Below, piece by piece: positions 12,001 through 50,632 of a stretch of 64,000 nt of DNA (positions are counted from its first letter, which is position 1; every line of letters starts with the position of its first letter). A program made the translations under genes and the position numbers. The notes under the pieces are model-generated. The model worked only from the letters and a program-made list of their open reading frames with translations. It ran no database searches and was not told where the DNA came from. The stretch is from assembly GCA_965205955.1 (NCBI GenBank), contig OZ242192.1, forward strand, positions 1,477,118-1,541,117, given 5' to 3'. The stretch comes from Gammaproteobacteria bacterium. GTDB lineage: Bacteria; Pseudomonadota; Gammaproteobacteria; Eutrophobiales; Eutrophobiaceae.

Positions 12001-15000
12001 GTTCGGTGACGCTGACGGTGCCGACCACCGACGACACTACCCCCGAGCCGAACGGCGTGATAACGGCGACGGTGACGTCCGGCGCCGGCTACATGCCAGC
12101 CGGAGGGGGAGCCGACAGCGCCAGTGTCACGGTGAATAATGACGACCGCGAGGCACCGACAGAACCGGGTGTCTTCGTCTCCCAGACGGAACTCAGTATT
12201 GAAGAAGGTAGCGAGGCCATCTACACCGTGGTACTCGACACCGCGCCGACGGACGATGTCACGATTACCCCGATGGTCGCTCCTGCCTCGGATGTACTCA
12301 GCGAGACTTTCTCTTCGGGCGACGAAGTGCCGGCAACGGTATCCGAGGCGCTGACCTTCACCCCGGCCAACTGGAACGTGCCACAGCCCGTCACTGTAAC
12401 CGGCGTGGACAACAACAGAACAGGAGCCCTCTTCCTGCAGGTGAGAGTGCGCCATATGGCCTCGAGCTCGGACGGCGACTATGACAGTGTGGGCATCGCG
12501 AGCGTGAGAGTCGACGTGTTCGATGACGATCCTTTGCTCATCATCTCCCATACGGAACGCACGGTGGCTGAAGCTGGCGGCATGGCCGAATACACCGTAG
12601 TGATGGGCTTCAGGCTGAGCGTAGATTTACCTGTTAGCCTGGTGAGCGATGCCCCCACGGTGGCGACGGTATCGCCGCCGGATCTGACCTTCACCCCGTC
12701 CAACTGGGATACGCCGCGGACCGTGACCGTGACCGGCGTGAACGACCCCTTCGACAATCCCGATGACCGCACTGCGACCATCAGCCATACGCATATGGTT
12801 GACGGTCGCGACTTTGGATCGCCTTCTCTTACGGAGGATATTCGCAACTTTGTATCGAGATCTGTGGTCGTCACCGCGACCGATGATGAGACCGCCGGCG
12901 TCACCATCTCCCCAGCCCCAGGGATGCCCATGGTTTCTTTAGGGGACGAAGCGACCTACACTGTGGTGCTGGATACCCCTCCGACCGACGGGGTATTAAT
13001 AATCCTTAGGGAAGAATTCTTTCAAGACGGGTCGGCGATGGTGGTTGATGTATCGCCGTTTGATGAGAGGACTCTGATTCCTCTGCCTCTGAGGTTTACC
13101 CCGTCCGCTTGGAACGTGCCACAGACCGTGACCGTGTTTGGCCGTGAAGTCGGCACTGCGAGCCTCATGTATAGTGCCGGGAGTAGAGACGACAGCTATC
13201 ATGAGATAGACATTGCGCCTCTGGTCATCACCGTGGCTGATAACGGTCCCGTCGCCCGCGTCCGCGTTTCGCCGGCGATGGTTCAGGTGGGCGAGGATAG
13301 CGGCACGACGGAGTACACCGTAGTGCTGGACAACCGGCCGCCGACGGCCGATGTCACCATCACTCCGGCGAGTGGTGACACTGCGATAGCGACGGTATCG
13401 CCGACGGAGCTGACCTTCACCCCGGACAACTGGAACATAGCGCAGCCCGTCACCGTCACCGGTGTGGACGACCCCGACTATAACCCCCCCTTCGGCAACC
13501 GCGCTGTGGCCGTAAGCCATACGGCTGCGAGCTCGGACGTCAACTATAACGGAAGAAGCATAGATCCTGTGACCGTCACCGTAGTAGATGACGAAATACG
13601 GCCAGCAGGAGTCATCGTTACAGATATAATCGGCGGTTTGATCATCGTGGGCGAACTGGACGACTTCGACACCGAACTGGGCATGGGCCGCACCAACACC
13701 TACGCCCTGGTGCTCAACAGACAGCCGACGGACAATGTCACCGTCACTCCGAGGAGTGGCGACACTGCGATAGCGAGGGTGAGCGGGGCGCTGACCTTCA
13801 CCCCGGACAACTGGAACACAGCGCAGACCGTCACCGTGACCGGCGTGAATGACGACGTTGATAATAGCGGCGACACCCGCACTGTGACCATAACCCATAC
13901 GGCTGTGAGCATGGAGGACGCCTATGACGGGATAACCATAGATACTGTGACCGTCACCGTAGAAGATGACGACACCCCCGGCGCCATCGTCTCCCCGACG
14001 GAACTCAGTATTGAAGAAAATGGCGATGGCATCTACACCGTGGTACTCGGCACCGTGCCGACGGCCCCTGTCATGATTACCCCGATGGTCGCTCCTAACT
14101 CGGATGTACTCAGCGAGACTTTCTCTCCAGGCGACGAAGTGCCGGCAACGGTATCCGGGGTGGCACTGACCTTCACCACGACCAACTGGAACGTGCCACA
14201 GACCGTCACCGTAACCGGCGTGGACAACAACAGAACAGGAACCCTCTTCCTGCGGGTGAGAGTGCGCCATATGGCCGAGAGCTTGGACAGCGACTATAAC
14301 GGGGTGGGCATCGCGAGCGTGAGAGTCGACGTGTTTGATGACGATCCTTTGCTCATCATCTCCGAATCGGCACTCACGGTTGCAGAAAATGGCGGCATGG
14401 CCACATACACCGTAGTGATGGGCGTCAGGCTGAGCGTAGATTTACCTGTTAGCCTGGCGAGCGACACGACCTCGGTGGCGACGGTATCGTCGACGGGGCT
14501 GACCTTCACCCCGGACAACTGGGATACGCCGCAGACCGTGACCGTGACCGGCGTGAACGACCCCTTCGACAATCCCGATGACCGCACTGCGACCATCAGC
14601 CATACGCATATGGTTGATGGTCGCGACTTTGGATCGAGTTCGGAGGAGGAGGATATTCGCGAACTTGTATCGAGATCTGTGGTCGTCACCGCGATCGATG
14701 ATGAGACCGCCGGCGTCACCATCTCCCCAGATATGCACATGGTTTCTGTAAGGAGCAGAGCGACCTACACTGTGGTGCTGGACACCCCTCCGACCGACGG
14801 GGTATTAATAATCCTTAGGGAAGAATTCTTTCAAGACGGGGCGGCGATGGTGGTTGATGTATCGCCGTTTGATGCGAGGACTCTGATTCCTCTGCCTCTG
14901 AGGTTTACCCCGTCCACCTGGAACGTGCCACAGACCGTGACCGTGTTTGGCCGTGAAGCCGGCACTGCGAGCCTCATGTATAGGGCCAGGAGTAGAGACG

Positions 15001-15053
15001 ACAGCTATCATGATATAGACATTGCACCTCTGGTCATCACCGTGGTTGAGTAG
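15..15053 (+). CDS. Giant repeat adhesin-like protein, 5'-partial. More than 5,000 aa lie in the window and the ORF runs off the window start. About 40 alternating Calx-beta-type repeats, a VCBS-like segment, a PKD-like segment, Ig-like domains, and a C-terminal cadherin/Ig-like repeat block.
   Basis: A single uninterrupted frame. The Calx-beta signature recurs every ~100 aa (DYADAG...TATSGTDYE...LTF.PG.TTQ.I.V.V.GD..DE.DETV...LS...NA.I....GTGTI.DDD). A VCBS-like stretch is present (YGSFVLDATSGVWIYTLNN ... ITGANDAP). The composition is T/V/D/G/A-rich. Confidence 0.9.
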   Translation: MMEGTTATFTVTATSAPAADLTVTVTVDDGAGNFIAGVAPTTVTITASATEATLMVATMADSIDEANGTITATVTIGAGYTVDGTNNTASVTVNDDDAEPTLAISSPSVPEGNSGSVMLRYTVTLTGATEREVTVDYADAGTGTATSGTDYETITAGTLTFTPGDATTQDIDVTVTGDAIDEGDGETVIVTLSGAVNAMITTPDGTGTITDDDAEPTLTINSPSVAEGDAGETPTLTYTVTLNGATEQTVTVDYADAGAGGSGTATSGTDYDAITPDTLTFVPGTTTQTITVMVTGDTDEEGDETVIVTLSNPDNATIATADGTGTIRGDDAPVLPTISIAAGPSPVTEADNATFTLTADPAPGTELIVTVTVDDGSGNFIASPAPTMVTITASTTTATLMVSTDDDSVDEAEGMITATVTAGAGYTIALSPDNSATVTVADNDPAPTLAINSPTVLEGDSGSTAMLRYTVTLSGETEQEVTVAYADAAGTATPDTDYETLTAGTLTFTSGGATAQNIDVIVTGDAIDEEDETVVLRLSGAVNAEITTPDGTGTITDDDAAPTLAIDSLSVAEGTTGETPTLTYTVTLTGNTEQEVTVAYADAGATGGGTATSGTDYETIAGGTLTFAPGTTTQTITVTVTGDTEDEGDGETVIVRLSNPNPVGVIITTPDGTGTITDDDDPTLPAISIAAGPSPVTEGDDATFTLTVAPAPMTDLTVTVTVDDGAGDFIASPAPTMVTITASNTTVTLTVMTEDDTTDEAAGMITATVTIGAGYTVSSPSTARVTVQDNDIVITGTPTGAVTEDAPTETATDTLVVEGGFVEQDGTTDRARGLGAYGSFVLDATSGVWIYTLNNDPTTTQGAATNALAEGDVVTEVFTAVSAADPSVEQEVTITITGANDAPTADAGLMQTVTQGITVTLDGSGSSDPDTGDMIDAYAWTQSSTPTVTLDATIEMPTFTAPAVTSPTDLGFSLVVNDGDTDSAPDPVTITVNPASAAPVVSTVEISSTGPYAAGDDIEVTVTFSEMVNVTDTPQIALMVDATTRQATYDSGTGTTALVFLYTVVDGENDADGVSIPANSLAQVAGSTIQDTDGTDDATLTHPAVDADPAQTVDTTAPTVSEVELSSDGPYALDEDIEVTVTFSEAVTVSGAPEITLTVGANERQATFSSGSDTVALVFTYTVAATETDDNGVSIPEDTLAQASGSAIQDTAGNDAVLDHDAVDADPAHAVDTTAPAFDSATVDADVLVLTYSENLDESSAPDNGDYTIGVTPGTAPTVTGVTLSGTDVTLMLSTPVTSDQTVTVSYTVGSTPLQDLAGNDAIELSDATVTNNTPMVLPTISIAAGSSPVTEVDNATFTLTATPAPGTDLTVTVTVTETGTFLGSPVPTTVMITASTTTATLTVPIDDDSIDEAPGMITATVTAGTGYMVDGAGNTASVTVNDNDAAPALAIDSPPMVTEGDDGDTATLSYTVTLSGDTTQEVTVDYADAGLVGGGTATSGADYEPITGGTLTFAPGTTTQTIDVTVRGDAIDEPDEETIIVMLSNPDNATIATDTGTGTITDNDPEPTLAIDSPNMFEGDDGDTATLRYTVTLSGDTEREVTVGYADAGTGTAASGTDYEALTAGTLTFAPGGATTQNIDVTVMGDVDDEGDEETVVVRLSGAVNATITTPDGTGTITDDDDPPALAINAPSVDEGDSGSVTLSYTVTLTGTTAQTVMVDYADAGSGTATSGTDYETITGGTLTFTPGGATTQTIAVTVTGDTIDEEDETVILRLSGAVNAEITTPDGTGTIDDDDDPPMLAISSPTMNEGNSGRAMLRYVVTLTGNTEREVTVDYADTSGGTATSGTDYDPITAGTLTFAPGGAATQNIDLMVVGDTIDEEDETVILRLSGAVNATISTADGTGTITDDDDEPTLAINSLTVPEGDSGSVMLRYTVTLNGATARTVTVQYADAGTTGGGTATSGADYDAITAGTLTFTPGGAATQTIDVMVRGDTIDEEDQTVILRLSGATNATITTPDGTGTITDDDAEPGLAINSPSVGEGDSMPLRYTVRLIGATEKEVTVQYEDSRAGSATSGADYDALTAATLTFAPGTTTQNIDVTVTDDTMNELTETVLITLSNNPVNARITTGTGTGRITDDDVPVISIAAGPAVNEGTAATFTLTANPAPAADLTVMVTVDDGAGDFIDGAAPTMVTITAGNREATLDVRTDDDSTDEVDGMITVTVTAGAGYMVAGGGDSTDSVTVRDDDDPVISIAAGAPVTEGTPATFTVTASSAPMTNLTVTVTVDDGAGNFIASPAPTTVTILASAMMATLTVPTTDDTTDEANGMITATVTDGAGYTVDGANNTDSVAVNDDDDPPTLAINSPSVDEGDTGDMPTLTYTVTLTGETEQEVTVDYADTTSGTAASGTDYTAITASTLTFAPGMTTQPINVTVRGDTIDEPNETVIVMLSNPDNATITAGSGVGTGTITDDDDPVISIVAADPTVIEGASATFTVRATSAPAANLSVMVAVTDGAGTFITGMPPTTVTIPASAMMATLTVPTTDDNTDEAPGMITATVETGTGYRVAPPPGDTARVTVNDNDALPRLAIDSPSVGEGNTGTATLSYTVTLIGATARTVMVDYADAGGGTATSGTDYTAITAGTTLTFAPGTTTQPINVTVTGDTTDEPNETVFVMLSNPVNATITAGRGTGTITDDDDPEISIVAGAAVTEGTAATFTLTASSAPGTNLTVTVTVDDGAGNFIAGSAPTTVTITGGERTAMLMVPTMADSIDEANGMITATVEDGTGYTVAGGGANTASVAVNDNDPPPTLAIDSPSVAEGDDGDAPTLSYTVTLTGDTEQEVTVGYADADSGTATSGTDYEAVTAGTLTFAPGTTTQPIEVTVTGDATDVEDETVILTLSGAVNATITTADGTGTITDDDRVPVISIVPFGPETVIEGTPPTAVRFTLMADPAPMANLTVTVTVDPGTYADGIPPTTVTITGGETMAMLPVPIENDERDEANGMITATVETGTGYTVASPPGNTASVAVEDDDDEPTLAINSPSVTEGNSGTATLRYVVTLTGMTEREVTVRYAEGSGGTATSGTDYNRITGGMLTFASGTTTQNIDVTVRGDTTDEPNETVIVTLSNPDNATIMTADGTGTITDDDDPEISIAAGAAVTEGTAATFTLTATSAPGTNLTVTVTVDDGSGNFIAGVAPTTVTITGTTATLRVPTMGDSIDEANGMITATVETGTGYTVDGTNNSASVAVNDDDAAPTLAIDSPSVAEGDSGTATLSYEVTLTGATEREVMVQYAGTGGTATSGTDYTAITAGTLTFAPSVTTQNINVTVRGDTVEEMNETVFVTLSSPVNATIVGNGRGTGTITDDDGVVALPVISIRAVGSFVNEGVPAIFTLTATPAPMADLTVTVTVDPGTYADGIPPTTVTITGGETTAMLTVLTENDMRQEQPSGIISGPITATVEDGAGYTVGSPNTATLSVIDADSPPSLSIDSPSVAEGNAGMTRLRYTVTLTNESELMVTVDYADETGTAAGDTATSGTDYTPLPSGTLTFAPRTTTQNIDVMVIGDTDVEPDETVIVRLSNPVNARTGSSLDRTGTGTITDDDLPVISIAAGPSPVIEGAPATFRLTANPAPAANLTVTVAVSDGAGDFIGSPPPPPTVVIPSGGSVTLSVPTNDDTADEPNGMITATVGSGTGYTVDGTNNTASVTVNDNDTAVVPVISIAAGTSSVIEGAPATFTLRANVPPPATLTVMVTVTASGDFIGSPLPTTVMITTSGLVTLTVPTMDDSINEPDGIITVTVTAGTGYTVATGGGNTASVTVQDNDVPAISIAAGPPVTEGALVTFTLTANPTPAADLTVTVTVTDSGDFITGAPPATVTITGSATTATLEVPTTDDTTPETLGMITAMVTAGDGYTVGTPAMATVDVRDDDTGIVISIVAGTSPVPEGMAATFTLTADPAPLANLTVTVTVTDSGDFITSAPMPTVVIPPAGSVTLTVPTTDDTTPEPNGVITATVTSGAGYMPAGGGADSASVTVNNDDREAPTEPGVFVSQTELSIEEGSEAIYTVVLDTAPTDDVTITPMVAPASDVLSETFSSGDEVPATVSEALTFTPANWNVPQPVTVTGVDNNRTGALFLQVRVRHMASSSDGDYDSVGIASVRVDVFDDDPLLIISHTERTVAEAGGMAEYTVVMGFRLSVDLPVSLVSDAPTVATVSPPDLTFTPSNWDTPRTVTVTGVNDPFDNPDDRTATISHTHMVDGRDFGSPSLTEDIRNFVSRSVVVTATDDETAGVTISPAPGMPMVSLGDEATYTVVLDTPPTDGVLIILREEFFQDGSAMVVDVSPFDERTLIPLPLRFTPSAWNVPQTVTVFGREVGTASLMYSAGSRDDSYHEIDIAPLVITVADNGPVARVRVSPAMVQVGEDSGTTEYTVVLDNRPPTADVTITPASGDTAIATVSPTELTFTPDNWNIAQPVTVTGVDDPDYNPPFGNRAVAVSHTAASSDVNYNGRSIDPVTVTVVDDEIRPAGVIVTDIIGGLIIVGELDDFDTELGMGRTNTYALVLNRQPTDNVTVTPRSGDTAIARVSGALTFTPDNWNTAQTVTVTGVNDDVDNSGDTRTVTITHTAVSMEDAYDGITIDTVTVTVEDDDTPGAIVSPTELSIEENGDGIYTVVLGTVPTAPVMITPMVAPNSDVLSETFSPGDEVPATVSGVALTFTTTNWNVPQTVTVTGVDNNRTGTLFLRVRVRHMAESLDSDYNGVGIASVRVDVFDDDPLLIISESALTVAENGGMATYTVVMGVRLSVDLPVSLASDTTSVATVSSTGLTFTPDNWDTPQTVTVTGVNDPFDNPDDRTATISHTHMVDGRDFGSSSEEEDIRELVSRSVVVTAIDDETAGVTISPDMHMVSVRSRATYTVVLDTPPTDGVLIILREEFFQDGAAMVVDVSPFDARTLIPLPLRFTPSTWNVPQTVTVFGREAGTASLMYRARSRDDSYHDIDIAPLVITVVE
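12170..15053 (+). repeat. Large intragenic direct duplication. Copy A (~12170-13250) and copy A' (~13985-15053) are about 90% identical at nucleotide level, with a ~1.8 kb period. The gene terminates immediately after copy A'.
   Basis: Long identical nucleotide runs were compared by eye, e.g. ccgacggaactcagtattgaagaa...gtgagagtgcgccatatggcc...gatgacgatcctttgctcatcatctcc in both copies. The protein blocks TELSIEEG...LIISHTERT and ...REEFFQDG...LVITV are repeated. Confidence 0.8.
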
Positions 15054-29806: not shown

Positions 29807-30616
29807 TTACTTTGAATACTGGCTATTATCTGTTTTTTTATAAATATAAATTACATTCATTTTAAATCCGGTAAAATGTTTTTCAATTAGTTCAAGGTGT
29901 CCGGCTGATACAAAGTCATTATCGATAAAATCTTCCAATTCACGATAATCGAATCCCAGGTGAGGGTCATAGCCGGTGTGTTTCGATTCTCTAAAGGAGC
30001 TTATCTCTCGTTTTTTTAGCAGATGTGCCAAATACTTCGAAAAACTATGTCTTTCAAAGAAATCTCCATAAGGATTGGGTCTAAGTAAATAACGACCTAA
30101 TAATTTAATTAATCCAACTATATAAATTTCATTAGGTATTGTTAGAATAATAATTCCCCCGGCATTTAAATGATTATAAATATTACTAAATGCATTATTA
30201 AAATTTCCAACATGCTCCAGGGTTTCAAAGCAGGTAACCAAATCAAAAGTCTTTTTCGTATCATTTATGGTATTCATATCAAAGAATTTGAATTGAGCAT
30301 CTGGAATCATCCTTTTTCGGGCTAAATCCAATAATTCTTCCGAACAGTCATAGCCCACTACAGTCGAAAATCGGAATTGAATATTCTTGATTATCTGTTC
30401 GATAATGAATCCATTCGAACATCCGAAATCCGCCCACTTGATTGTTTTTGATGGGAGGTATTTTCGAAACATCCTGAGAATTGCACGGAACCTGTTCCGA
30501 TGCACCAACGAGGCCGGATACCTGCTGGTATAATTTTTTTCATGCAATGATAAGTCTTGACTCATTTTGCGGAATAGTTTGATAAATATAGTAATCAACA
30601 GCCGAATAACAGCCAA
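29807..30616 (-). CDS. Class I SAM-dependent methyltransferase, orphan, in an AT-rich islet.
   Basis: Motif I ADFGCSNGFII and post-I VTCFETLEHV are present. The gene is about 30% GC, against about 55% for the surrounding DNA. Confidence 0.7.
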   Translation of the reverse strand: MAVIRLLITIFIKLFRKMSQDLSLHEKNYTSRYPASLVHRNRFRAILRMFRKYLPSKTIKWADFGCSNGFIIEQIIKNIQFRFSTVVGYDCSEELLDLARKRMIPDAQFKFFDMNTINDTKKTFDLVTCFETLEHVGNFNNAFSNIYNHLNAGGIIILTIPNEIYIVGLIKLLGRYLLRPNPYGDFFERHSFSKYLAHLLKKREISSFRESKHTGYDPHLGFDYRELEDFIDNDFVSAGHLELIEKHFTGFKMNVIYIYKKTDNSQYSK

Positions 30617-30915
30617 TTATATTATACAAATAGACTATTTCACAATCTATTCATCGACCCGTGCCGGGGGTACCACCCGCAACAGCCGTGCCGCCGATAC
30701 CCGGTAGCGCCTGTAGCAACTGATTCCGATTGCCTGCCTTGAGCAATTTGAGAAATGAGGTTTTGTGAACTGCAAGTATATAATCAATTATTTTATTCGC
30801 GTTTGTCGGACGGGATAAATTCGGTGCGTAGGGTAATTAAGGAGTATTTATTTTTATAGTTTTAACTTGGAAAGTTAAAGTTATTTATTAGCTATGAGAA
30901 TAAAACATTTGTTAC

Positions 30916-30944
30916 TTGACAAGTTGTGCGATGCAGCATATAAA
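30916..30944 (+). promoter_or_regulatory. Candidate sigma70 promoter for aceA.
   Basis: TTGACA (30916-30921), a 17-nt spacer, then TATAAA (30939-30944), lying ~100 nt upstream of the aceA GTG start. Confidence 0.5.
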
Positions 30945-31043
30945 GTATGTTTACACAAAAAAATTATGGTGGAAATGTGCAAGGGACCGGAGGCAAGACC
31001 ATGCACCTTCCTTTTGTTAATCATCAGTCATGGGGGATAGTTC

Positions 31044-43490: not shown

Positions 43491-43575
43491 GCCGATGTGG
43501 TGGAATTGGTAGACACGCTATCTTGAGGGGGTAGTGCCTTTTGGCGTGCCGGTTCGACTCCGGCCATCGGCACCA
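43491..43575 (+). tRNA. tRNA-Leu (anticodon GAG), 85 nt with CCA.
   Basis: GCCGATGTGGTGGAATTGGTAGACACGCTATCTTGAGGGGGTAGTGCC...GGTTCGACTCCGGCCATCGGCACCA. The anticodon loop is TTGAGGG, with a long variable arm. Confidence 0.9.
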
Positions 43576-43659: not shown

Positions 43660-46407
43660 ATGCCCCTCAGCTGGAATGAAATCCGCGATCGTGCGTTGGC
43701 GTTTTCCAATGATTGGAGCGGGGAGTCTTCCGAACGCGCCGAAGCGCAGACTTTCTGGAACGCCTTTTTTAACCTCTTCGGCGTCTCCCGCCGCCGGATC
43801 GCCTCCTTTGAAAAGCGCGTCAAGGAAGTTGACGGCAAGGGCGGCTACATCGATTTGCTGTGGAAAGGCGTGCTGTTGATCGAGCACAAGTCACGCGGTG
43901 AAAATCTCGACCGCGCTTACCAGCAGGCGCTGGATTATTTCCCCGGATTGGAAGACCGCGACCTGCCGCGTTTTGTGCTGGTGTCCGATTTCGCCCGTTT
44001 TCGGCTATACGACCTGGACGAAGGCGAGCAGCACGAGTTTGCCGTGCAAGACCTGCACAAGCACGTCAACCGTTTTGCCTTCATCGCCGGTTATCAAACC
44101 CACAAAATAAAAGAGCAGGACCCGGTCAACATCAAAGCCGCCGAGTTGATGGGCAAACTGCACGATCGGCTACGGGCAGTCGGCTACACCGGCCACGATC
44201 TGGAGGTGTATCTGGTGCGTCTGTTGTTTTGCATGTTTGCCGAAGACACCGGAATTTTTGAGCGGCAGCAGTTTCAGGAGTACATTGAAATCCGCACCGC
44301 GCAGGACGGCACCGACCTCGGGGCGCAACTCGATACCTTGTTTTATGTATTGAACGCACCGGAACCCAACCGCCTCGACAACCGCGACGAACAACTCAAC
44401 GGATTCCCGTTTGTCAACGGCAAACTGTTCGAGGAGCGCCTGCGCCCAGCGGCATTTGACTGCGCCATGCGCGAATCGCTGCTGCATTGCTGCTCGCTCG
44501 ACTGGAGCCGTATCTCCCCGGCGATTTTCGGCTCGCTGTTTCAGTCCATCATGGACAAAGACGCACGGCGCAACCTCGGCGCGCACTACACCTCGGAGGA
44601 GAACATCCTCAAACTCATCAATCCGCTTTTCATGGACGACCTGCGGGCCGAGTTTAAAAAAGTCAAAAACAACAAAAACAGGCTGTTCGAGTTCCACAAA
44701 AAACTCCGCACCCTGACGTTCCTTGACCCCGCCTGCGGCTGCGGCAATTTCCTCGTCATCGCCTACCGTGAATTGCGCCTGCTGGAGCTGGAAATTCTGC
44801 GCGCGACGTACCGGCAGGGCAGGCAGATGTTACAAATCCAAACCATGATCCAACTAGACGTGGACCAGTTCTACGGCATAGAAATCGAAGAGTTCCCGGC
44901 GCAAATCGCACAGGTGGCAATGTGGCTGGTTGACCATCAGATGAACACGCGGGTGTCGCAGGAGTTCGGTATGTACTTTGCGCGCATTCCGCTGACATCG
45001 AGCGCGAATATCGTTCACGGCAATGCCTTGCAGATGGACTGGCGGGATTTGGTTGTGCCGGAGCGGTTGAATTACATTATGGGGAATCCGCCGTTTATTG
45101 GTAAAAACTTTCAGAACAGCGAACAAAAGCAGGACATGAAGCGCATTTATGGGGAATCCAGATACAGCGCGGGATTGGATTATGTGACCGCCTGGTATAA
45201 ACAGGCTTTGCGCTATATGAAAGACAACGATGAGATTACATGCGCGTTTGTTTCCACCAACTCTATCACGCAAGGCGAGCAGGTCTATATGTTTTGGCCG
45301 GCTTTGCTGGGAGACGGCATCCAGATTCATTTTGCGCACCGGACTTTTCAATGGGCGAATGAAGCCAGAGGCAAGGCCGCCGTGCATTGCGTGATCATCG
45401 GCTTTGGCTTGAAACCGGCGAAGAAAAAGCGATTGTTTGAATACGAGGATATTCAAAGCAAGCCGCATGAAATTCGCGCCAACAATATCAACCCGTATCT
45501 TGTGGATGCTGGCAATATCGTCATTCCTGCGGCGACCAGCGCTTTGTGTGATTGCCCGAAAATGATCAACGGAAACAAGCCGACTGACGGCGGGAATCTG
45601 TTGCTGAATGAAAAGGAAAAGAATGAGTTATTAGCATTGCAACCCGAAGCAGCCGAATGGGTTAAGCCGTATTCAATGGGCAACGAGTTTATTAACGGCA
45701 TTCCCCGTTTTTGTTTGTGGTTGAAACATTGTCCCCCGGAAAAATTACGCAAGATGCCGCATGTCATAAAGCGCATAGAAGCGGTAAAAGAGATGCGCAG
45801 TAAAAGCGCGGATAAGAACACGCGGAAATTTGCCGAAAAGCCGACGGTTTTTATGGCTGATAGACAATCTGAAAGTGCGTATCTGGCGATTCCCAGGATA
45901 TCCTCTGAAAGAAGAATTTATATTCCGATAGGCTTTTTGCAACCCGACCATATTGCAGGCGAAACATTGCACACGGTGCCGAATGCAACTCTCTATCATT
46001 TTGGCGTGGTCACATCGCTTATGCACATGGCATGGATGCGGGTCGTGGGCGGCAGGCTCAAGAGCGACTATCGTTATCTAGCGAACATCGTCTACAACAA
46101 CTACCCTTGGCCTAAAACCCCAACCGAAAAACAAACCGCCGACATCGAAACCAAAGCCCAGGCAGTCCTTGACGCCCGTGCGCAATTCCCCGACTCCACC
46201 CTCGCCGATCTCTACGACCCGTTGACCATGCCGCCGCCGCTCCTCAAAGCCCATCAGGCATTGGACAAAGCGGTAGATCGCACTTACCGCAAAACCCCGT
46301 TCAACAACGAAGCCGAGCGGGTTGCCTTCCTGTTCGATCTCTACCAACAATACACCGCCCCGCTCCTGCCGAAGAAAAAAACACAGCGGCGGAAGAGGGC
46401 GATCTAA
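43660..46407 (+). CDS. MmeI-family Type IIL restriction-modification enzyme, with fused PD-(D/E)xK endonuclease, helical, gamma-class N6-adenine methyltransferase and target-recognition domains.
   Basis: At 915 aa it matches the family size. The N-terminus reads MPLSWNEIRDRALAFSNDW...AEAQTFWNAFFNLFGV...IDLLWKGVLLIEHKSRG (D...E.K nuclease core). Motif I is LDPACGCGNFLV and motif IV YIMGNPPFIGKN. Confidence 0.8.
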   Translation: MPLSWNEIRDRALAFSNDWSGESSERAEAQTFWNAFFNLFGVSRRRIASFEKRVKEVDGKGGYIDLLWKGVLLIEHKSRGENLDRAYQQALDYFPGLEDRDLPRFVLVSDFARFRLYDLDEGEQHEFAVQDLHKHVNRFAFIAGYQTHKIKEQDPVNIKAAELMGKLHDRLRAVGYTGHDLEVYLVRLLFCMFAEDTGIFERQQFQEYIEIRTAQDGTDLGAQLDTLFYVLNAPEPNRLDNRDEQLNGFPFVNGKLFEERLRPAAFDCAMRESLLHCCSLDWSRISPAIFGSLFQSIMDKDARRNLGAHYTSEENILKLINPLFMDDLRAEFKKVKNNKNRLFEFHKKLRTLTFLDPACGCGNFLVIAYRELRLLELEILRATYRQGRQMLQIQTMIQLDVDQFYGIEIEEFPAQIAQVAMWLVDHQMNTRVSQEFGMYFARIPLTSSANIVHGNALQMDWRDLVVPERLNYIMGNPPFIGKNFQNSEQKQDMKRIYGESRYSAGLDYVTAWYKQALRYMKDNDEITCAFVSTNSITQGEQVYMFWPALLGDGIQIHFAHRTFQWANEARGKAAVHCVIIGFGLKPAKKKRLFEYEDIQSKPHEIRANNINPYLVDAGNIVIPAATSALCDCPKMINGNKPTDGGNLLLNEKEKNELLALQPEAAEWVKPYSMGNEFINGIPRFCLWLKHCPPEKLRKMPHVIKRIEAVKEMRSKSADKNTRKFAEKPTVFMADRQSESAYLAIPRISSERRIYIPIGFLQPDHIAGETLHTVPNATLYHFGVVTSLMHMAWMRVVGGRLKSDYRYLANIVYNNYPWPKTPTEKQTADIETKAQAVLDARAQFPDSTLADLYDPLTMPPPLLKAHQALDKAVDRTYRKTPFNNEAERVAFLFDLYQQYTAPLLPKKKTQRRKRAI

Positions 46408-46755
46408 AGAATTGCGCTAAAATGGCTATTCTTTCAATGCCCCATCTTACTGCACATCGGCTGTATATTATAAGTACTACGATAAACCTGTTATAACTGG
46501 GATATCTATATTGTCACCAAGCATGCCAATGTGTCAGTGATATTTAATCTTTGAATAGACAATTTCTACTTTCCAGTTATTGCGGACAAGTTGTCGATAA
46601 ATATAATTCTTTCCTGCTGCCAAATCTTCAGTGGAAACTCATGGGCCGCTAGTAATCTTGCTATCTGCTTTATCAAGGTGATTTCCTGCTTAGTGTAACT
46701 CTAGGAATCTAATATTAGTTTTAGGAGTTTGAAATAGAGTTTTCAGGGTATTTTT

Positions 46756-47532
46756 TTAATCCTTATGTTTATCATTATTTTTCGATTGACGTTTGATTTT
46801 ATTGAGATCGACCAGCTCATTTCTTATTTGGTTAATTTTTATTTTATGAGGCTCATGTTTGGAGAGACAGCATTTTTTATATTTTTTACCACTTCCGCAT
46901 AAGCATAGATCATTCCTTCCGGTTTTGCCGGTTTTGCTTATTATTTCCGATTTGCAAAATTCAAGTCTCTTCTCACGATCTTCTATCTCCTCTTCAAGAG
47001 CTTCTTTTGTGGAATGTGGAGATTCTCCACATGGTGGAATTTTTCTATATTTGTAATAGTAAGACTGCCACACAAAGTATGGATAAACATCATGATGAAT
47101 GAAATCACTCAGTGAAGCTCTGGTAGATAAGCTTTTTGTCGATATGATGTTTAGGCAGCATCTGTGATCTTGAGGGAATAAATGCAAGTCAATAACTTTT
47201 TTTGTTAACTTATTTGCTAGACTCTCAATCTTCTCTCCAACTTCGTATACTTTAGGATATCTATTTTTTTGATTTAGGTCAATTTCAATTAGGTATTCGC
47301 CTGTTATACATCCATTTTGGTCATCTCTACATTGCTCTATCTCCCAATAGGTAAAATTATGCATTTTTCTCTGCTTGTAGCAACAAGCAGGAATATCCAA
47401 TATGCCGCGTATTTTGTTATCTTCTGAGCAATAGTAGAGACGAGGAAACCATTTTTTTACTTTTTCAAATTCTACCTGTGAATGTTTAATCAATTGCGAA
47501 TGGTTTTTTTGCATGCGTTGTGGGAATAACAA
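46756..47532 (-). CDS. SEC-C-motif (CxC..GSGxKYKxCC) metal-binding protein of unknown function, last gene of the AT-rich CBASS-like operon.
   Basis: The C-terminus reads ...DLCLCGSGKKYKKCCL. The N-terminal ~200 aa are Cys-rich with no domain I recognise. The gene is ~30% GC. Its 5' end overlaps the 3' end of the upstream SMODS gene by 29-47 nt, depending on which Met is used. Confidence 0.6.
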   Translation of the reverse strand: MLFPQRMQKNHSQLIKHSQVEFEKVKKWFPRLYYCSEDNKIRGILDIPACCYKQRKMHNFTYWEIEQCRDDQNGCITGEYLIEIDLNQKNRYPKVYEVGEKIESLANKLTKKVIDLHLFPQDHRCCLNIISTKSLSTRASLSDFIHHDVYPYFVWQSYYYKYRKIPPCGESPHSTKEALEEEIEDREKRLEFCKSEIISKTGKTGRNDLCLCGSGKKYKKCCLSKHEPHKIKINQIRNELVDLNKIKRQSKNNDKHKD

Positions 47533-48478
47533 CAGCTGGAGCTACGCCAATACTACTGGAGGTATTTGACGATTTTTTTGTCAATTTCCCAAAATCATCA
47601 CCAAACAATTTACGCCACTTCTTGATACTTTCATCGTGGTCTTTCTCCTCAAAAGCCTCATCAATTCTTTTATTATATATACTGAACTTGTCTCTAAAGT
47701 TATCATATTTTTTCTGATTCCAGTGTCTATTGAAATCTTCTTCAGACATGACAGGGTTTTCAATGATTGGCATGGTTATATGCATTTGGAGAAAGTCATT
47801 CAATCTATTAGAAAGAGTCTTTAATGTTGTTGGTACATCTGAAAAGTCTCTAGAGTTTCCATCTCCATCTTTGACTTCATTCCCCAACAAGGTTGTCAGT
47901 AATATAGATTTTACTGAGAAATTGTCCTTATGATCGCGCAAGAACTTCAGTAGCCTAGTTGTCTTTCTGAAATTGTTGTTTCTTACAATCTGATTTTTGT
48001 TTATCAGCCAGGTCTTATATCCATCACCGTCAGTCTTTTCATATTTTTCTTCTGTTCTGTTGCATATGTAGTTTGTTCCGTTGTGCTCTACACAAGGAAC
48101 TATGTCCAAATCAAAATCACCAGCGTAATCGATAGTTACACACCGTGTGCCTATTTCAATTTTGTCTTTGTAGTTGTCATTGTTCTTGAACACATCATAG
48201 ACTGTCTTCACATAGTCCGTTTCGAATTTGTTCGGATCAAAATTATTATCTCGAATCAAGGTTAATATATCTGCATCAAATTGATCGTTAGCTTGTACTG
48301 GCTTGATTATGGTCTTGTGGGCATATGATCCCTGCTCGCTGTATTTTCTATAGTTTGCAAGCTTTTCTTTGAGAATATCTGTGATGGTTTTTACACGTTT
48401 CTTTAGTGCTTCCAATCTCGTTGGATTCAGATTGACATGCTTATTCAGAAAATCGTCAAAATCTAGTAGGTGCTTCAT
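47486..48478 (-). CDS. SMODS-domain cGAS/DncV-like nucleotidyltransferase (CD-NTase), the cyclic-oligonucleotide synthase of a CBASS-like system.
   Basis: GS...h[DE]h[DE]h is matched by EQGSYAHKTIIKPVQANDQFDADILTLI, and the third acidic residue lies in YAGDFDLDIVPCVEH. The protein is 330 aa. A GGAGG ribosome-binding site lies 11 nt after the patatin stop. Confidence 0.7.
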   Translation of the reverse strand: MKHLLDFDDFLNKHVNLNPTRLEALKKRVKTITDILKEKLANYRKYSEQGSYAHKTIIKPVQANDQFDADILTLIRDNNFDPNKFETDYVKTVYDVFKNNDNYKDKIEIGTRCVTIDYAGDFDLDIVPCVEHNGTNYICNRTEEKYEKTDGDGYKTWLINKNQIVRNNNFRKTTRLLKFLRDHKDNFSVKSILLTTLLGNEVKDGDGNSRDFSDVPTTLKTLSNRLNDFLQMHITMPIIENPVMSEEDFNRHWNQKKYDNFRDKFSIYNKRIDEAFEEKDHDESIKKWRKLFGDDFGKLTKKSSNTSSSIGVAPAVVIPTTHAKKPFAID

Positions 48479-48489
48479 TTTTTTTCCTC

Positions 48490-49443
48490 CTATTGCTTCC
48501 GTCCGTTTAGAAAATCTGAAATGCCGGTGTTGTCTTTTGTGAACATTTCTTTAGCTCTCTCCACTAAGATGGGGATGTTTTGATAATTATCAAGTGGATA
48601 TTTATCGATAGGGGGGTTGATCCTGAAAATCCCATCTGGATCAATCAGTTGCAAGACATTTTGAGGAAACTTTGTTTGGCATGACATCATAAAATCGACC
48701 AATTGGGTATGTTTCCACCCCGTCAAAAAACCCCACCCCCATCTTTGAGGCTTTTTGTAATTGTGCTGAGCCTGCCCAGTTCCTAAAGATAAAATTTTGA
48801 TGTTATCTCGTTGTTCTGAGAAATTTCTAATGGCATCAGTATAGCCAACCAAAGAGGGATTATTTGCCCAGATGCCCCCATCACAAATAAGAGTGCCGTT
48901 TATATCTACCGGATCAAAATAAATTGGTGCTGAGCACGAGGCCAAAACTGCTTTGTATAAAGGTACTTCTCTATCACGCACATAATCGCCTTTTCGCTGA
49001 ACCTTTTGATACGATGATTTAAAGACATAGACTTCTCCAAGAGAGACGTTTGTTGCATTCAATATGAGAGGTTTTTCTATTTCTCCTAACTTCCTCTTGC
49101 CTAGTTTTTCCTGAAGAAAGCTTTCCAGAAAGGAGGAATCGTATTTGGAGCTTAAATGAATGCCTGCAAGCTTTTTCTTCCTAAATATTTTTGGGGCATT
49201 TTCGTCGTAATCCTTTACTAGCTGAGTTAAATCATACTTTGTAATGATAGCTGCAGCTATAATACTGCCGGTACTAGTTCCTACGATGAGATCGAAGGTT
49301 TTATATATATCTATATTGAGCTTGGTTTCCATAAGCTCTAGAATCTTTGCAGCGAAGATGCCTCGTACTCCACCACCATCAATGCTCAATACTCGAAATG
49401 GTCTGCTATTCATTAAATTTTCCTCTATTTCTCTGTAAACCAA
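48490..49443 (-). CDS. Patatin-like phospholipase (CapV-like CBASS effector).
   Basis: Oxyanion motif LSIDGGGVRG, nucleophile motif VGTSTGS (GxSxG) and catalytic Asp motif ICDGGIWANNP are present. Confidence 0.85.
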   Translation of the reverse strand: MVYREIEENLMNSRPFRVLSIDGGGVRGIFAAKILELMETKLNIDIYKTFDLIVGTSTGSIIAAAIITKYDLTQLVKDYDENAPKIFRKKKLAGIHLSSKYDSSFLESFLQEKLGKRKLGEIEKPLILNATNVSLGEVYVFKSSYQKVQRKGDYVRDREVPLYKAVLASCSAPIYFDPVDINGTLICDGGIWANNPSLVGYTDAIRNFSEQRDNIKILSLGTGQAQHNYKKPQRWGWGFLTGWKHTQLVDFMMSCQTKFPQNVLQLIDPDGIFRINPPIDKYPLDNYQNIPILVERAKEMFTKDNTGISDFLNGRKQ

Positions 49444-49499
49444 TTCTGCATTAGCACATACTTCATTTGTATGAGCATTATCCCGCCCTTGCTACATTC

Positions 49500-49634
49500 T
49501 TCCGCCATTCCTACCGGAGCAGAAACCCATAGATTGATTGCTGCCAATGAACAGTCCTGTTCCACAGCGGTTTGCAGGGCGAGGTACTGGCGGAGCTGCT
49601 GATGGTCATTGATATCCTCGTAGCCCAGCACCAT
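49500..49634 (-). pseudogene. IS4/IS5-superfamily DDE transposase N-terminal remnant.
   Basis: MVLGYEDINDHQQLRQYLAL...DCSLA resembles the conserved ..LGYEDLNDHD.LR.D.L.. N-terminus of IS4-like transposases and breaks off after ~40 aa. An adjacent out-of-frame Sel1-like fragment is present (MPNKDIKRFQKLLNQAEAGDPEAMFNLATAYINGAG, 49625-49738). Confidence 0.45.
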
Positions 49635-49897
49635 TTATATAGGCGGTAGCAAGATTGAACATTGCTTCTGGATCTCCAGCCTCCGCTTGATTTAGTAATT
49701 TCTGGAATCTTTTAATATCTTTGTTAGGCATTATCTCCGAACCTCGTTATTAAGCAGCGTGAGTTTGCCATCTATGCTATGGCATATAAAAACGGAATTT
49801 CCTTTTTTCTGGCTTATTTAACACTTTAAACCAGGAAATTCCGTAAAATAAACTTATGAATTATCAATGCGCCGCAAAGACAAGAATAATCCACCCG

Positions 49898-50632
49898 CTA
49901 ATACTGATCGATGAAATCCTCCAGCAGGGTTACCACCCGCCCCATACCCTGCTCAAGATTATATTGGATCATCTCCATGGTTACCGGTTGGTCTGATTTA
50001 CCGGCCGCCCGGTTCACGACCAGCGCACAGCAGGCATAGTTGATCGACTGTTCACGGGCAAGGGCGGCTTCCGGCATGCTGGTCATCCCGACAATATCGC
50101 AACCGTCCCGTTCCATTCGGGCGATCTCGGCGGCGGTTTCCAGACGCGGCCCCTGGGTTGTGCCGTATGTGCCTTGTATTGCGGCATCAAGGTTTTCGGC
50201 GGCACTGATGAGCCGCTGTCGTACCGATTCCGAGTAGGGTTGGGTGAAGTCGATATGCGTGACCTGTTTCAGGTTTTCTTCATGGAAGGTTGAGGCGCGA
50301 CCGTGGCTGTAATCTATGAGTTGGTCCGGGATCACGATGCGCTGCGGAGACATGCCGGGAGTGATTCCTCCGACTGTGTTGACTGCGATAATGTCGGTAA
50401 CCTCTATTTGTTTTAAGGCCCAGATGTTTGCCCGGTAATTTATCCTGTGCGGCGGGATGGTGTGGGGATCGCCGTGTCTGGGCAGAAACACGATTTTTTT
50501 CCCGGCGTATTCGGCGATGAGGAGCGCCGAGGATGGTTCGCCCCATGGTGCAGCTATGTTTTTATGTTCTTTTTCCCGTGCGTTGAATCGGTTGGCTATT
50601 CCCGTACCGCCGATGATTGCAAGCCGGGTCAT
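49898..50632 (-). CDS. mtnP: S-methyl-5'-thioadenosine phosphorylase (MTAP/PNP family).
   Basis: MTRLAIIGGTGI...KIVFLPRHG..HTIPPHRINYRANIWALK... Confidence 0.75.
   Translation of the reverse strand: MTRLAIIGGTGIANRFNAREKEHKNIAAPWGEPSSALLIAEYAGKKIVFLPRHGDPHTIPPHRINYRANIWALKQIEVTDIIAVNTVGGITPGMSPQRIVIPDQLIDYSHGRASTFHEENLKQVTHIDFTQPYSESVRQRLISAAENLDAAIQGTYGTTQGPRLETAAEIARMERDGCDIVGMTSMPEAALAREQSINYACCALVVNRAAGKSDQPVTMEMIQYNLEQGMGRVVTLLEDFIDQY

What the first reader, a model, noticed from the sequence alone, without database searches (positions are those of the whole stretch)
47486..49443. AT-rich CBASS-like pair: patatin phospholipase upstream of an SMODS/CD-NTase nucleotidyltransferase
Two tightly linked minus-strand genes are separated by 11 nt, with a GGAGG ribosome-binding site for the second. 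They encode a patatin-like lipase (GGGxRG, GxSxG and DGG motifs) followed by a nucleotidyltransferase with the GS...DxD...D triad of cGAS/DncV-like SMODS enzymes. This is the minimal type I CBASS architecture; the capV then dncV order matches Vibrio. The genes are about 30% GC in a genome of about 55% GC and sit in an island next to tRNA-Leu, consistent with horizontally acquired anti-phage defence. I assigned the cyclase clade and nucleotide product by eye only, so both remain open.
Basis: partly seen in the sequence, partly recalled or inferred. Interest (0 to 1): 0.8.

Follow-up and report, generated by a model that had tools for sequence, protein, structure and literature searches.

The report
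Three-gene E2-type CBASS phage defence operon
The two genes are a real anti-phage CBASS pair (signal-making cyclase plus membrane-destroying lipase), but a third overlapping gene for a ubiquitin-E2-like regulator was missed, so this is a known "type II short / E2-CBASS" system of a little-studied subtype, not a minimal two-gene one.

Summary
Two intact minus-strand genes, a patatin phospholipase and an SMODS/CD-NTase cyclase, lie 11 nt apart behind an AGGAGG site. They sit in a 36% GC block within a 53% GC window, 3 kb from tRNA-Leu.

The order patatin, cyclase, E2 is kept in about 50 related loci, and in 11 of them cyclase and E2 are one fused protein. The locus is therefore a type II(short)/E2-CBASS.

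It differs from the characterised Serratia system in four ways:
- The cyclase is short (330 aa) and sits nearer clade D/C than clade G by overall sequence and fold.
- It lacks the ubiquitin-like C-terminal module.
- It ends in a disordered tail with a conserved K-P-[Y/F]-Ala motif, not Gly.
- Its E2 carries SEC-C.

The nucleotide product is unresolved; the lid residues resemble those of CdnG. Interest is moderate: a new variant of a known kind.

The parts
48490..49413 (-). CapV-like patatin phospholipase effector (307 aa). The ORF stays open up to TTG 49443.
   Evidence: - Pfam Patatin 7e-30; NCBIfam CBASS_lipase 220.8 bits against a cutoff of 200; PADLOC phospholipase effector 1.3e-83.
- Closest solved chains are cGAMP-activated CapV proteins, E 2e-27.
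- GGGVRG, GTSTG and DGG motifs are present.
- The 307-aa product is an exact database entry.
48486..48491 (-). AGGAGG Shine-Dalgarno site for the cyclase, overlapping the lipase stop codon
   Evidence: Read directly from the sequence...CAATAGGAGGAAAAAAAATG.
47486..48478 (-). CD-NTase / SMODS nucleotide cyclase (330 aa)
   Evidence: - SMODS 2.4e-29; DncV-like NTase 3.9e-10; PADLOC cyclase 5.5e-121.
- AF2 pLDDT 87.6.
- Foldseek TM 0.78 to EcCdnD 7d4j, 0.69 to SmCdnG, 0.66 to DncV.
- Closest chain by sequence is B. cereus CdnD 9sa4, 5.5e-17.
- G50, S51, D70 and D125 are invariant in the family; D68 is >=90% conserved.
47489..47572 (-). Disordered C-terminal tail of the cyclase (residues 303-330). 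It ends A323-K-K-P-F-A328-I-D. A328 is the proposed conjugation or processing residue.
   Evidence: - pLDDT is below 50 for residues 303-330.
- A loose motif search found K/R-P-[YFW]-Ala followed by 1-3 residues (or, in fusions, by the E2 domain) in 94 of 119 homologues; 12 have Gly and 7 Ser.
- K325, P326 and A328 are invariant in the fusion alignment.
46756..47514 (-). E2-like (Cap2-short) protein with a C-terminal SEC-C zinc knuckle. The most likely start is TTG 47493 (245 aa, 8-nt overlap with the cyclase). Alternatives are ATG 47514 and TTG 47532.
   Evidence: - PADLOC CBASS E2 models 9.4e-21, and 6.3e-14 without the SEC-C part.
- AF2 pLDDT 90.3.
- Homologue N-termini MI(K/E)Y align to window LIKH at TTG 47493.
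47155..47184 (-). Putative E2 active centre H111-x7-C119-C120 (252-aa numbering from ATG 47514)
   Evidence: H111, C119 and C120 are each >=90% conserved in 56 homologues. The spacing matches the canonical E2 HPN-to-Cys distance of about 8 residues (10.1101/2022.03.31.486616). It also parallels the essential H87 and C101 of SmE2 (10.1101/2022.05.25.493364).
46867..46905 (-). SEC-C zinc-binding motif C204-L-C206-GSGKKYKK-C215-C216
   Evidence: Pfam SEC-C 2.9e-9. It matches SecA and YchJ zinc-finger peptides in the PDB. C204 is invariant and C206 and C215 are >=90% conserved. In the model it lies between two long helices, 169-195 and 218-250.
46420..49900 (.). Low-GC block (37% GC) that carries the operon
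   Evidence: Composition profiles. Gene GC3 is 0.30-0.38, against 0.58-0.64 in the neighbouring housekeeping genes.
43660..46407 (+). Neighbouring MmeI-type IIG restriction-modification gene. It is convergent with the operon and part of the same defence islet, but not part of CBASS.
   Evidence: All five MmeI Pfam domains are present. PADLOC REase_MTase_IIG scores 1235 bits.
43491..43575 (+). tRNA-Leu(GAG), marking the left edge of the islet
   Evidence: ARAGORN and Rfam tRNA at 50.4 bits. tpiA and secG lie immediately upstream.

Best explanation
The locus is an intact three-gene type II(short) 'E2-CBASS' abortive-infection operon on the minus strand: capV-like lipase, then CD-NTase, then E2-SEC-C.

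Proposed mechanism:
1. The E2-like protein recognises the cyclase's disordered C-terminal tail.
2. Its conserved His/Cys centre cleaves after Ala328 (K-P-F-A|I-D) and takes the cyclase onto the cysteine as a thioester.
3. The cyclase is passed to lysines, either on E2 and other cyclase molecules (cyclase chains) or on other targets. This primes or activates the cyclase during phage infection.
4. The cyclase makes a cyclic oligonucleotide. The most likely product is a G/A-containing dinucleotide of the cGAMP type.
5. That signal switches on the patatin phospholipase, which degrades membrane lipids and kills the infected cell.

Shown here: gene identities, operon architecture, conservation of catalytic residues and of the tail motif, the folds, and natural cyclase-E2 fusions.

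Inferred by analogy with the Serratia CdnG-E2 system: covalent chemistry at Ala328, activation by conjugation, the nucleotide product and lipase activation. The role of the SEC-C zinc knuckle is unknown.
For: - Family assignments: and (E2 models still hit at 6.3e-14 after the SEC-C part is removed).
- Synteny: patatin, cyclase, E2-SEC-C is kept in nearly all related loci whose cyclase is >=43% identical. Among 58 junctions the E2 is separate in the +1 frame (19), separate in the +2 frame (23), in frame after a stop (5) or fused (11). Of the 120 best cyclase homologues, 23 are cyclase-E2-SEC-C fusions of 511-560 aa.
- Tail: it is disordered but ends in a conserved K-P-[YF]-Ala motif followed by 1-3 residues or by the E2 domain. 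This parallels Y405-G406-E407 of SmCdnG. There, E2 removes what follows G406 and G406A is tolerated (10.1101/2022.05.25.493364).
- E2 centre: H111, C119 and C120 are >=90% conserved, paralleling the essential H87 and C101 of SmE2.
- Product hint: Q49-G-S with lid residues T149 and Y154 aligns with the QGSV, S167 and Y172 of SmCdnG (PMC12948482). SmCdnG makes 3',2'-cGAMP.
- Most CapV genes lie in type II operons (PMC12480259).
Against: - No biochemistry was done; every step after gene identity is by analogy.
- E2-CBASS cyclases are reported to have a highly conserved C-terminal Gly and a C-terminal helix plus beta-sheet module that recruits E2, and to be 74% clade G (PMC12948482). This cyclase has Ala and no such module. 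By overall sequence and fold it is nearest clade D/C trinucleotide synthases.
- The E2 family profile does not detect SmE2 by sequence.
- No equivalent of the K159 isopeptide lysine is conserved.
- No Shine-Dalgarno site is visible before any candidate E2 start.
Confidence: 0.85

Rival explanations
1. Minimal two-gene type I CBASS. On this view the downstream SEC-C ORF is an unrelated neighbour.
For: The lipase and cyclase alone would form a complete signalling pair. The source annotation calls the third gene only as a 202-aa SEC-C protein with no name.
Against: - The third ORF overlaps the cyclase stop.
- It hits CBASS E2 models even without the SEC-C part.
- Its model resembles SmE2.
- It is syntenic in about 50 loci from many phyla and is fused in frame to the cyclase in 11 loci and 23 database proteins.
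Confidence: 0.03
2. The three genes form a type II(short) CBASS, but E2 works differently from the Serratia model. It might only process or hold the tail as an inhibitor. It might conjugate the cyclase to other cellular or phage targets, as full-length Cap2 does. Or the SEC-C zinc knuckle might be the actual sensor or localisation device. The product might also be a trinucleotide.
For: - The tail is disordered with a conserved end, as in cyclases of E1E2/JAB systems (10.1101/2022.03.31.486616), not the folded ubiquitin-like module of CdnG (PMC12948482).
- The terminal small residue is Ala, not Gly.
- The SEC-C hairpin is conserved.
- The overall nearest relatives are CdnD/CdnC trinucleotide synthases.
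- One related locus (L012) carries a SAVED effector instead of the lipase.
Against: - There is no E1 or adenylation domain to activate a free C-terminus, so a protease-like transpeptidation as in SmE2 is the simplest route.
- The His/Cys centre is conserved.
- The lid residues look like CdnG, not like the Gln or His of clade C/D trinucleotide synthases (PMC13424991).
- Known patatin effectors respond to dinucleotides (molecule names).
Confidence: 0.1
3. The operon is a decaying, non-functional horizontally acquired remnant.
For: It sits in a foreign-composition block beside a short fragment that resembles a transposase, below threshold. No clear promoter or terminator stands out above the shuffled background.
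Against: All three ORFs are full length relative to their homologues. Every catalytic and motif residue checked is intact. No frameshift or premature stop is present.
Confidence: 0.02

Closest known systems
Serratia marcescens E2-CBASS: SmCdnG, SmE2 and 2TM-SAVED (type II short; Yan et al., 10.1101/2022.05.25.493364; Xiao et al., PMC12948482; PDB 8hsb/8yjy)
   Same: - A CD-NTase sits next to an E2-only protein, with no E1 and no JAB.
- The cyclase tail ends aromatic, small residue, then a few extra residues (YGE in Serratia; [YF]-A-x(1-3) here).
- Natural cyclase-E2 fusions exist (PMC12948482).
- The QGS motif and the Ser/Thr plus Tyr lid residues align.
   Different: - The cyclase is 330 aa rather than 407 and lacks the C-terminal helix plus three-stranded sheet module. 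Its tail is disordered instead.
- The terminal small residue is Ala, not the reported conserved Gly.
- The cyclase is nearer BcCdnD than CdnG by overall sequence.
- The E2 has a helical hairpin with a SEC-C zinc knuckle of about 85 residues that SmE2 lacks.
- The effector is a patatin lipase, not 2TM-SAVED.
- The E2 family profile does not detect SmE2.
Vibrio cholerae capV-dncV-cap2-cap3 (type II CBASS with E1-E2 fusion and JAB)
   Same: The gene order is lipase, cyclase, then E2-containing regulator. The effector is a patatin CapV-type protein (NCBIfam CBASS_lipase above cutoff). The cyclase tail is disordered with a conserved extreme C-terminus (10.1101/2022.03.31.486616).
   Different: There is no E1/adenylation domain and no Cap3/JAB gene. 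The cyclase is not clade A: DncV gives no sequence hit and TM 0.66 or lower. The E2 has a canonical-like His-to-Cys spacing, unlike the Cap2 E2 domain, which lacks an HPN motif.
Bacillus cereus CdnD (PDB 9sa4/9sa5; type II CBASS with Cap2, Cap3 and Cap4; makes cA3; PMC13424991)
   Same: It is the closest solved cyclase by sequence (5.5e-17, and 1.2e-20 with the family profile). It is of similar length (340 aa), and lid 1 is Thr in both.
   Different: XGSX is SGSY in BcCdnD and QGSY here. Lid 2 is His in BcCdnD and Tyr here. The partner proteins differ: Cap2/Cap3 and a Cap4 nuclease there, E2-SEC-C and a lipase here.
SecA / YchJ SEC-C zinc-binding motif (PF02810)
   Same: The CxCxSGxKYKxCC zinc-knuckle sequence is shared.
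   Different: Here it is appended to a CBASS E2 enzyme. No Sec translocase context is present, and its function here is unknown.

Membership tests
CBASS (any type) | CD-NTase/SMODS cyclase with the GS...DxD...D catalytic residues | tested here: met
   SMODS 2.4e-29 and PADLOC cyclase 5.5e-121. G50, S51, D70 and D125 are invariant and D68 is >=90% conserved. The model has the CD-NTase fold.
CBASS (any type) | Adjacent co-oriented effector gene of a known CBASS effector class | tested here: met
   Patatin gene 11 nt upstream. NCBIfam CBASS_lipase scores 220.8 bits against a cutoff of 200, and the PADLOC phospholipase effector scores 1.3e-83.
CBASS (any type) | Phage-triggered synthesis of a cyclic oligonucleotide that activates the effector | not testable with these tools
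   Needs enzymology and phage challenge.
Type I CBASS (cyclase plus effector only) | No ancillary (Cap2/E2, Cap3, HORMA/TRIP13, other) gene in the operon | tested here: not met
   An E2-like gene overlaps the cyclase stop and is syntenic or fused in relatives.
Type II(short) / E2-CBASS | E2-only ancillary protein encoded next to, or fused to, the cyclase | tested here: met
Type II(short) / E2-CBASS | No E1/adenylation domain and no JAB/Cap3 peptidase in the operon | tested here: met
   Only the E2 models match meaningfully. The E1-E2 model hit (PDLC00833) covers profile positions 42-219 of 222. The flanks hold the MmeI gene and a short fragment that resembles a transposase, below threshold.
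Type II(short) / E2-CBASS | Conserved catalytic Cys with a nearby essential His in E2 | tested here: met
   H111, C119 and C120 are >=90% conserved in 56 sequences. Which of the two Cys is catalytic was not resolved.
Type II(short) / E2-CBASS | Conserved Gly at the cyclase C-terminus (reported as highly conserved, not formally defining) | tested here: not met
   A loose motif search found Ala in 94 of 119 homologues, Gly in 12 and Ser in 7. The window has A328. G406A is tolerated in SmCdnG (10.1101/2022.05.25.493364).
Type II(short) / E2-CBASS | Extra C-terminal helix plus three-stranded beta-sheet module on the cyclase that recruits E2 (reported as conserved) | tested here: not met
   In the AF2 model the last helix is 281-292, then residues 303-330 have pLDDT below 50. 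The protein is 330 aa, against 407 for SmCdnG.
Type II(short) / E2-CBASS | Covalent thioester or isopeptide cyclase-E2 linkage and cyclase chains | not testable with these tools
   Needs co-expression, SDS-PAGE with and without DTT, and mass spectrometry.
Type II CBASS (full: Cap2 E1-E2 plus Cap3) | E1 adenylation domain fused to E2, plus a JAB deconjugase | tested here: not met
   The E2 protein is 245-258 aa with no E1 region, and there is no JAB gene.
CapV-type cGAMP-activated phospholipase | Patatin fold with the GGGxRG oxyanion motif and the Ser (GxSxG) / Asp (DGG) catalytic dyad | tested here: met
   Motifs at residues 13, 45 and 178. The closest PDB chains are CapV proteins at 2e-27.
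CapV-type cGAMP-activated phospholipase | Activation specifically by 3',3'-cGAMP | not testable with these tools
   Ligand specificity cannot be read from about 30% identity. A cUMP-AMP-activated lipase (9iom) is nearly as close.
CD-NTase clade D | Groups with CdnD references and carries the clade D active-site motifs (PDVDI, LDL; lid 2 Gln or His) | tested here: inconclusive
   - The nearest solved sequence is BcCdnD and the best TM is to EcCdnD.
- However, EcCdnD scores only 9e-4 with the profile, against 1e-13 for SmCdnG.
- The motifs here are FDADI and LDI, and lid 2 is Tyr as in CdnG.
- No reference-set phylogeny could be run.
CD-NTase clade A (DncV-like) | Closest relatives are DncV-type cGAMP synthases | tested here: not met
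   No DncV sequence hit at E<=0.001. DncV ranks 36th or lower in Foldseek. The NCBIfam cGAS model scores 79 bits against a cutoff of 150.

The most novel reading that the evidence does not exclude
This may be a mechanistically distinct, uncharacterised subclass of E2-CBASS. A short cyclase close to clade D is handled through an intrinsically disordered tail ending in Ala, not Gly. It has no ubiquitin-like docking module. The E2 carries a SEC-C zinc knuckle on a helical hairpin, which might supply a new sensing, localisation or E3-like function. The cassette has spread horizontally across many phyla of sponge symbionts.
Probability: 0.25. Interest if true: 0.55.

Novelty: new variant of a known kind. 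Interest (0 to 1): 0.4.

Why it matters
The finding corrects the system's type and boundaries from two genes to three.

It also flags a natural E2-CBASS subclass that breaks two features recently described as conserved in E2-CBASS: the C-terminal Gly and the ubiquitin-like docking module. It adds a zinc-knuckle domain as well.

Natural cyclase-E2 fusions that keep the K-P-Y-A motif look like self-processing polyproteins. They offer a simple test of how an E2 without an E1 can cleave and conjugate its substrate, and of whether Ala can replace Gly in ubiquitin-like chemistry.

The practical significance is modest. CBASS, CapV effectors and E2-only regulators are established, and PADLOC models already recognise this family.

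Tried and rejected
1. Programmed frameshift or transcriptional slippage at the A7 run (GCA AAA AAA CCA) in the cyclase/E2 overlap, as a way to make a fusion. Rejected.
   - A -1 slip runs into a stop after 4 codons.
   - A +1 shift at the run would delete the conserved P-F-A.
   - Across 58 related junctions the E2 lies in the +1 frame (19), the +2 frame (23), in frame after a stop (5) or fused (11). No frame relationship is conserved, and ATGA-type start/stop overlaps are common.
2. att-like direct repeat of the tRNA-Leu 3' end to delimit an integrated element. None of 14 nt or more was found.
3. The 23-nt imperfect inverted repeat that brackets the operon (46654-46676 / 49634-49656, 78% complementary). 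A 10-nt seed match is expected by chance in 6.6 kb, so I treat it as unproven.
4. Carriage on phages. A scan of viral contigs with the cyclase family found no relative.
5. Regulatory RNA near the operon. Rfam found only the tRNA. The promoter and terminator scan was no better than shuffles.
6. Sequence-level link between this E2 and SmE2 or Cap2 in the PDB. Only SEC-C peptides and marginal UBC hits came up. The link rests on PADLOC profiles and the predicted structure.
7. Exact look-up of the source contig to name the organism. It is not on record, and the cluster look-up gave no names.
8. Clade assignment from PDB neighbours alone. It is inconclusive.
Full report
**Observation**

They are 48490..49443 (317 aa from TTG) and 47486..48478 (330 aa).

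- The lipase probably starts at ATG 49413 (307 aa). That product is an exact database entry, and a GAGGA lies just upstream.
- The two genes are 11 nt apart. An AGGAGG spans the lipase stop codon and the spacer.
- The lipase carries GGGVRG, GTSTG and DGG. The cyclase carries G50-S51, D68-x-D70 and D125. G50, S51, D70 and D125 are invariant and D68 is >=90% conserved among 32 homologues.

Profile matches are decisive:
- Patatin, 7e-30, and SMODS, 2.4e-29.
- PADLOC cyclase, 5.5e-121, and PADLOC phospholipase effector, 1.3e-83.
- NCBIfam 'CBASS cGAMP-activated phospholipase', 220.8 bits against a cutoff of 200.

The operon is 36.3% GC. The window is 53.2% and the immediate flanks 49-50%. Gene GC3 is 0.30-0.38, against 0.58-0.64 in the neighbouring housekeeping genes. 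The contrast is real but smaller than '30 vs 55'.

A third minus-strand ORF (46756..47532) overlaps the 3' end of the cyclase in another frame.

- It hits six PADLOC CBASS E2 models (best 9.4e-21) and the SEC-C zinc-binding motif (2.9e-9).
- With the SEC-C part removed, the E2 hits remain (6.3e-14).
- An AlphaFold2 model built on 56 homologues is confident (pLDDT 90.3). It shows an N-terminal helix, a beta-sheet, a loop carrying the conserved residues and a long helix. A helical hairpin follows, with the SEC-C knuckle between its two helices.
- In the family alignment H111, C119 and C120 are >=90% conserved (numbering from ATG 47514). So are the SEC-C cysteines.
- The His-to-Cys spacing of 8 matches the HPN-to-Cys spacing of canonical E2s (10.1101/2022.03.31.486616). 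It also parallels the essential H87 and C101 of SmE2 (10.1101/2022.05.25.493364).
- Homologue N-termini (MIKY/MIEY) align with window L-I-K-H, encoded from TTG 47493. The likeliest product is therefore 245 aa, overlapping the cyclase by 8 nt.
- The database entry of 202 aa (P0121) looks N-terminally truncated.

**Comparative evidence that the three genes form one system**

- The cyclase has 1214 database homologues at E<=1e-5. Of the best 120, 23 are proteins of 511-560 aa in which the cyclase is fused in frame to the E2-SEC-C protein.
- I examined 82 loci: 80 from species-representative genomes and 2 from exact look-ups.
- The order patatin, cyclase, E2-SEC-C holds in nearly every locus whose cyclase is >=43% identical to the window's.
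- Among 58 junctions the E2 gene is separate in the +1 frame (19), separate in the +2 frame (23), in frame after a stop (5) or fused (11). ATGA-type start/stop overlaps are frequent.
- This pattern fits translational coupling of two genes that are sometimes fused. It rules out a conserved programmed frameshift at the window's A7 run.
- A few relatives lack the lipase. One (L012) carries a SAVED-domain protein after the E2.

**Classification**

The locus is a type II(short)/E2-CBASS, not type I. No E1 or JAB gene is present. The flanks hold a convergent MmeI-type IIG restriction-modification gene on one side. On the other are a 69-aa ORF with a weak, sub-threshold transposase-like hit and then housekeeping genes.

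**Mechanism by analogy**

In the Serratia system the E2 alone performs several steps:
- It trims the cyclase after G406 of the Y405-G406-E407 end.
- It forms a G406-C101 thioester and then a G406-K159 isopeptide.
- It builds cyclase chains that activate synthesis of 3',2'-cGAMP.
- H87 and C101 are essential, and G406A is tolerated while G406V/L is not (10.1101/2022.05.25.493364).

The window cyclase ends A323-K-K-P-F-A328-I-D.

- In the family the end is K/R-P-[Y/F/W]-small residue followed by 1-3 residues. In fusions it is followed by a linker and the E2 domain.
- By a loose motif search the small residue is Ala in 94 of 119 sequences, Gly in 12 and Ser in 7.
- I therefore propose that E2 cleaves after Ala328 and conjugates the cyclase through it. 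On this view the natural fusions are self-processing precursors.
- This step is inferred, not shown.

**Differences from the characterised E2-CBASS**

Xiao et al. (PMC12948482) report three things about E2-CBASS cyclases. They are long. They carry a conserved C-terminal helix plus three-stranded sheet that docks E2, with a conserved terminal Gly. And 74% of them are clade G. Here:
- The cyclase is 330 aa. Its model ends with a helix at 281-292, followed by a disordered tail (pLDDT below 50 for 303-330). In this respect it resembles cyclases of E1E2/JAB systems (10.1101/2022.03.31.486616).
- The terminal small residue is Ala.
- The E2 has an extra SEC-C hairpin.
- A full-text search for CBASS together with SEC-C found no paper describing this combination.
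- PADLOC models clearly include the family. One cyclase model is 462 positions long, and two E2 models align through the SEC-C motif.

**Clade and product**

- By sequence the nearest solved cyclase is Bacillus cereus CdnD, which makes cA3 (5.5e-17, and 1.2e-20 with the family profile). SmCdnG follows at 1.1e-13 (PMC13424991).
- By fold the best TM-scores are to Enterobacter CdnD (0.78), then CdnC, CdnB, SmCdnG (0.69) and DncV (0.66).
- The specificity positions look like CdnG. Q49-G-S, lid 1 T149 and lid 2 Y154 align with QGSV, S167 and Y172 of SmCdnG. Clade C/D trinucleotide synthases have Gln or His at lid 2 (PMC13424991).
- Taking this together with the patatin effector, I favour a G/A dinucleotide product, at low confidence.
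- The clade is unresolved. DncV-like clade A is excluded as the nearest group.

**Context**

tpiA, secG and tRNA-Leu(GAG) are followed by the MmeI-type gene, which has host-like GC. Then comes the low-GC CBASS block (about 46420-49900), and then purine-salvage genes. No att repeat was found, and no relative was found on viral contigs. Nearly all related loci come from MAGs of lineages typical of sponge symbionts. These include Poribacteria, Latescibacterota, Arenicellales, Caldilineaceae and Dehalococcoidia/SAR202, together with 'Ca. Spongiihabitans', 'Ca. Porisulfidus' and AqS3. This points to wide horizontal sharing of the cassette in that habitat.

**Verdict**

The locus is a new variant of a known kind and of moderate interest.

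Noticed in passing
window 43660-46407 (+): An intact MmeI-type IIG restriction-modification enzyme (915 aa, all five MmeI domains; PADLOC 1235 bits). It lies between tRNA-Leu and the CBASS operon and is convergent with it. Together they form a two-system defence islet. Unlike CBASS, the gene has host-like GC (53%).
   Followed up: partly
window 49425-49634 (-) and 49637-49731 (-): A 69-aa ORF with a weak, sub-threshold DDE_Tnp_1_4 transposase hit (19 bits against a cutoff of 34.7). It abuts a short ORF (MPNKDIKRFQKLLNQAEAGDPEAMFNLATAY...) that has no Pfam hit. Both look like debris left by earlier insertions upstream of the lipase gene.
   Followed up: partly
window 15-15053 (+): A giant ORF of 5012 aa at about 65% GC, much higher than the rest of the window. 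Its first 1000 residues contain Calx-beta and cadherin-like repeats, so it is probably a huge adhesin or surface protein.
   Followed up: partly
window 29807-30616 (-), within 30001-31000: A second low-GC islet (36% GC over 1 kb). It holds a class I SAM-dependent methyltransferase ORF, between an oxoprolinase/hydantoinase gene and an isocitrate lyase gene.
   Followed up: partly
loci L003-L061: The cyclase/E2-SEC-C family is found almost only in MAGs of lineages typical of sponge symbionts, across many phyla. They include Poribacteria, Latescibacterota, Arenicellales, Caldilineaceae, Dehalococcoidia/SAR202, Nitrospirales, Bdellovibrionales and AqS3. This suggests habitat-wide horizontal spread. 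The window's own organism could not be named.
   Followed up: partly
L012 6531-7547 (+); L016 9233-10638; L018 6794-8727: Effector swapping and stacking in relatives. L012 has a SAVED-domain protein after the E2 instead of the lipase. The Arenicellales loci L016 and L018 carry a second, distant patatin-plus-cyclase pair a few kb downstream.
   Followed up: partly
window 46756-47364 (-) versus 46756-47493: The database version of the E2 protein (P0121, 202 aa, start ATG 47364) appears N-terminally truncated by about 43 residues relative to its homologues. Those homologues begin MI(K/E)Y, aligned to TTG 47493.
   Followed up: yes
window 46654-46676 and 49634-49656: A 23-nt imperfect inverted repeat (78% complementary) brackets the CBASS operon almost exactly. 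It is probably chance, given the 10-nt seed in a 6.6-kb search, but it could mark the ends of a cassette.
   Followed up: no
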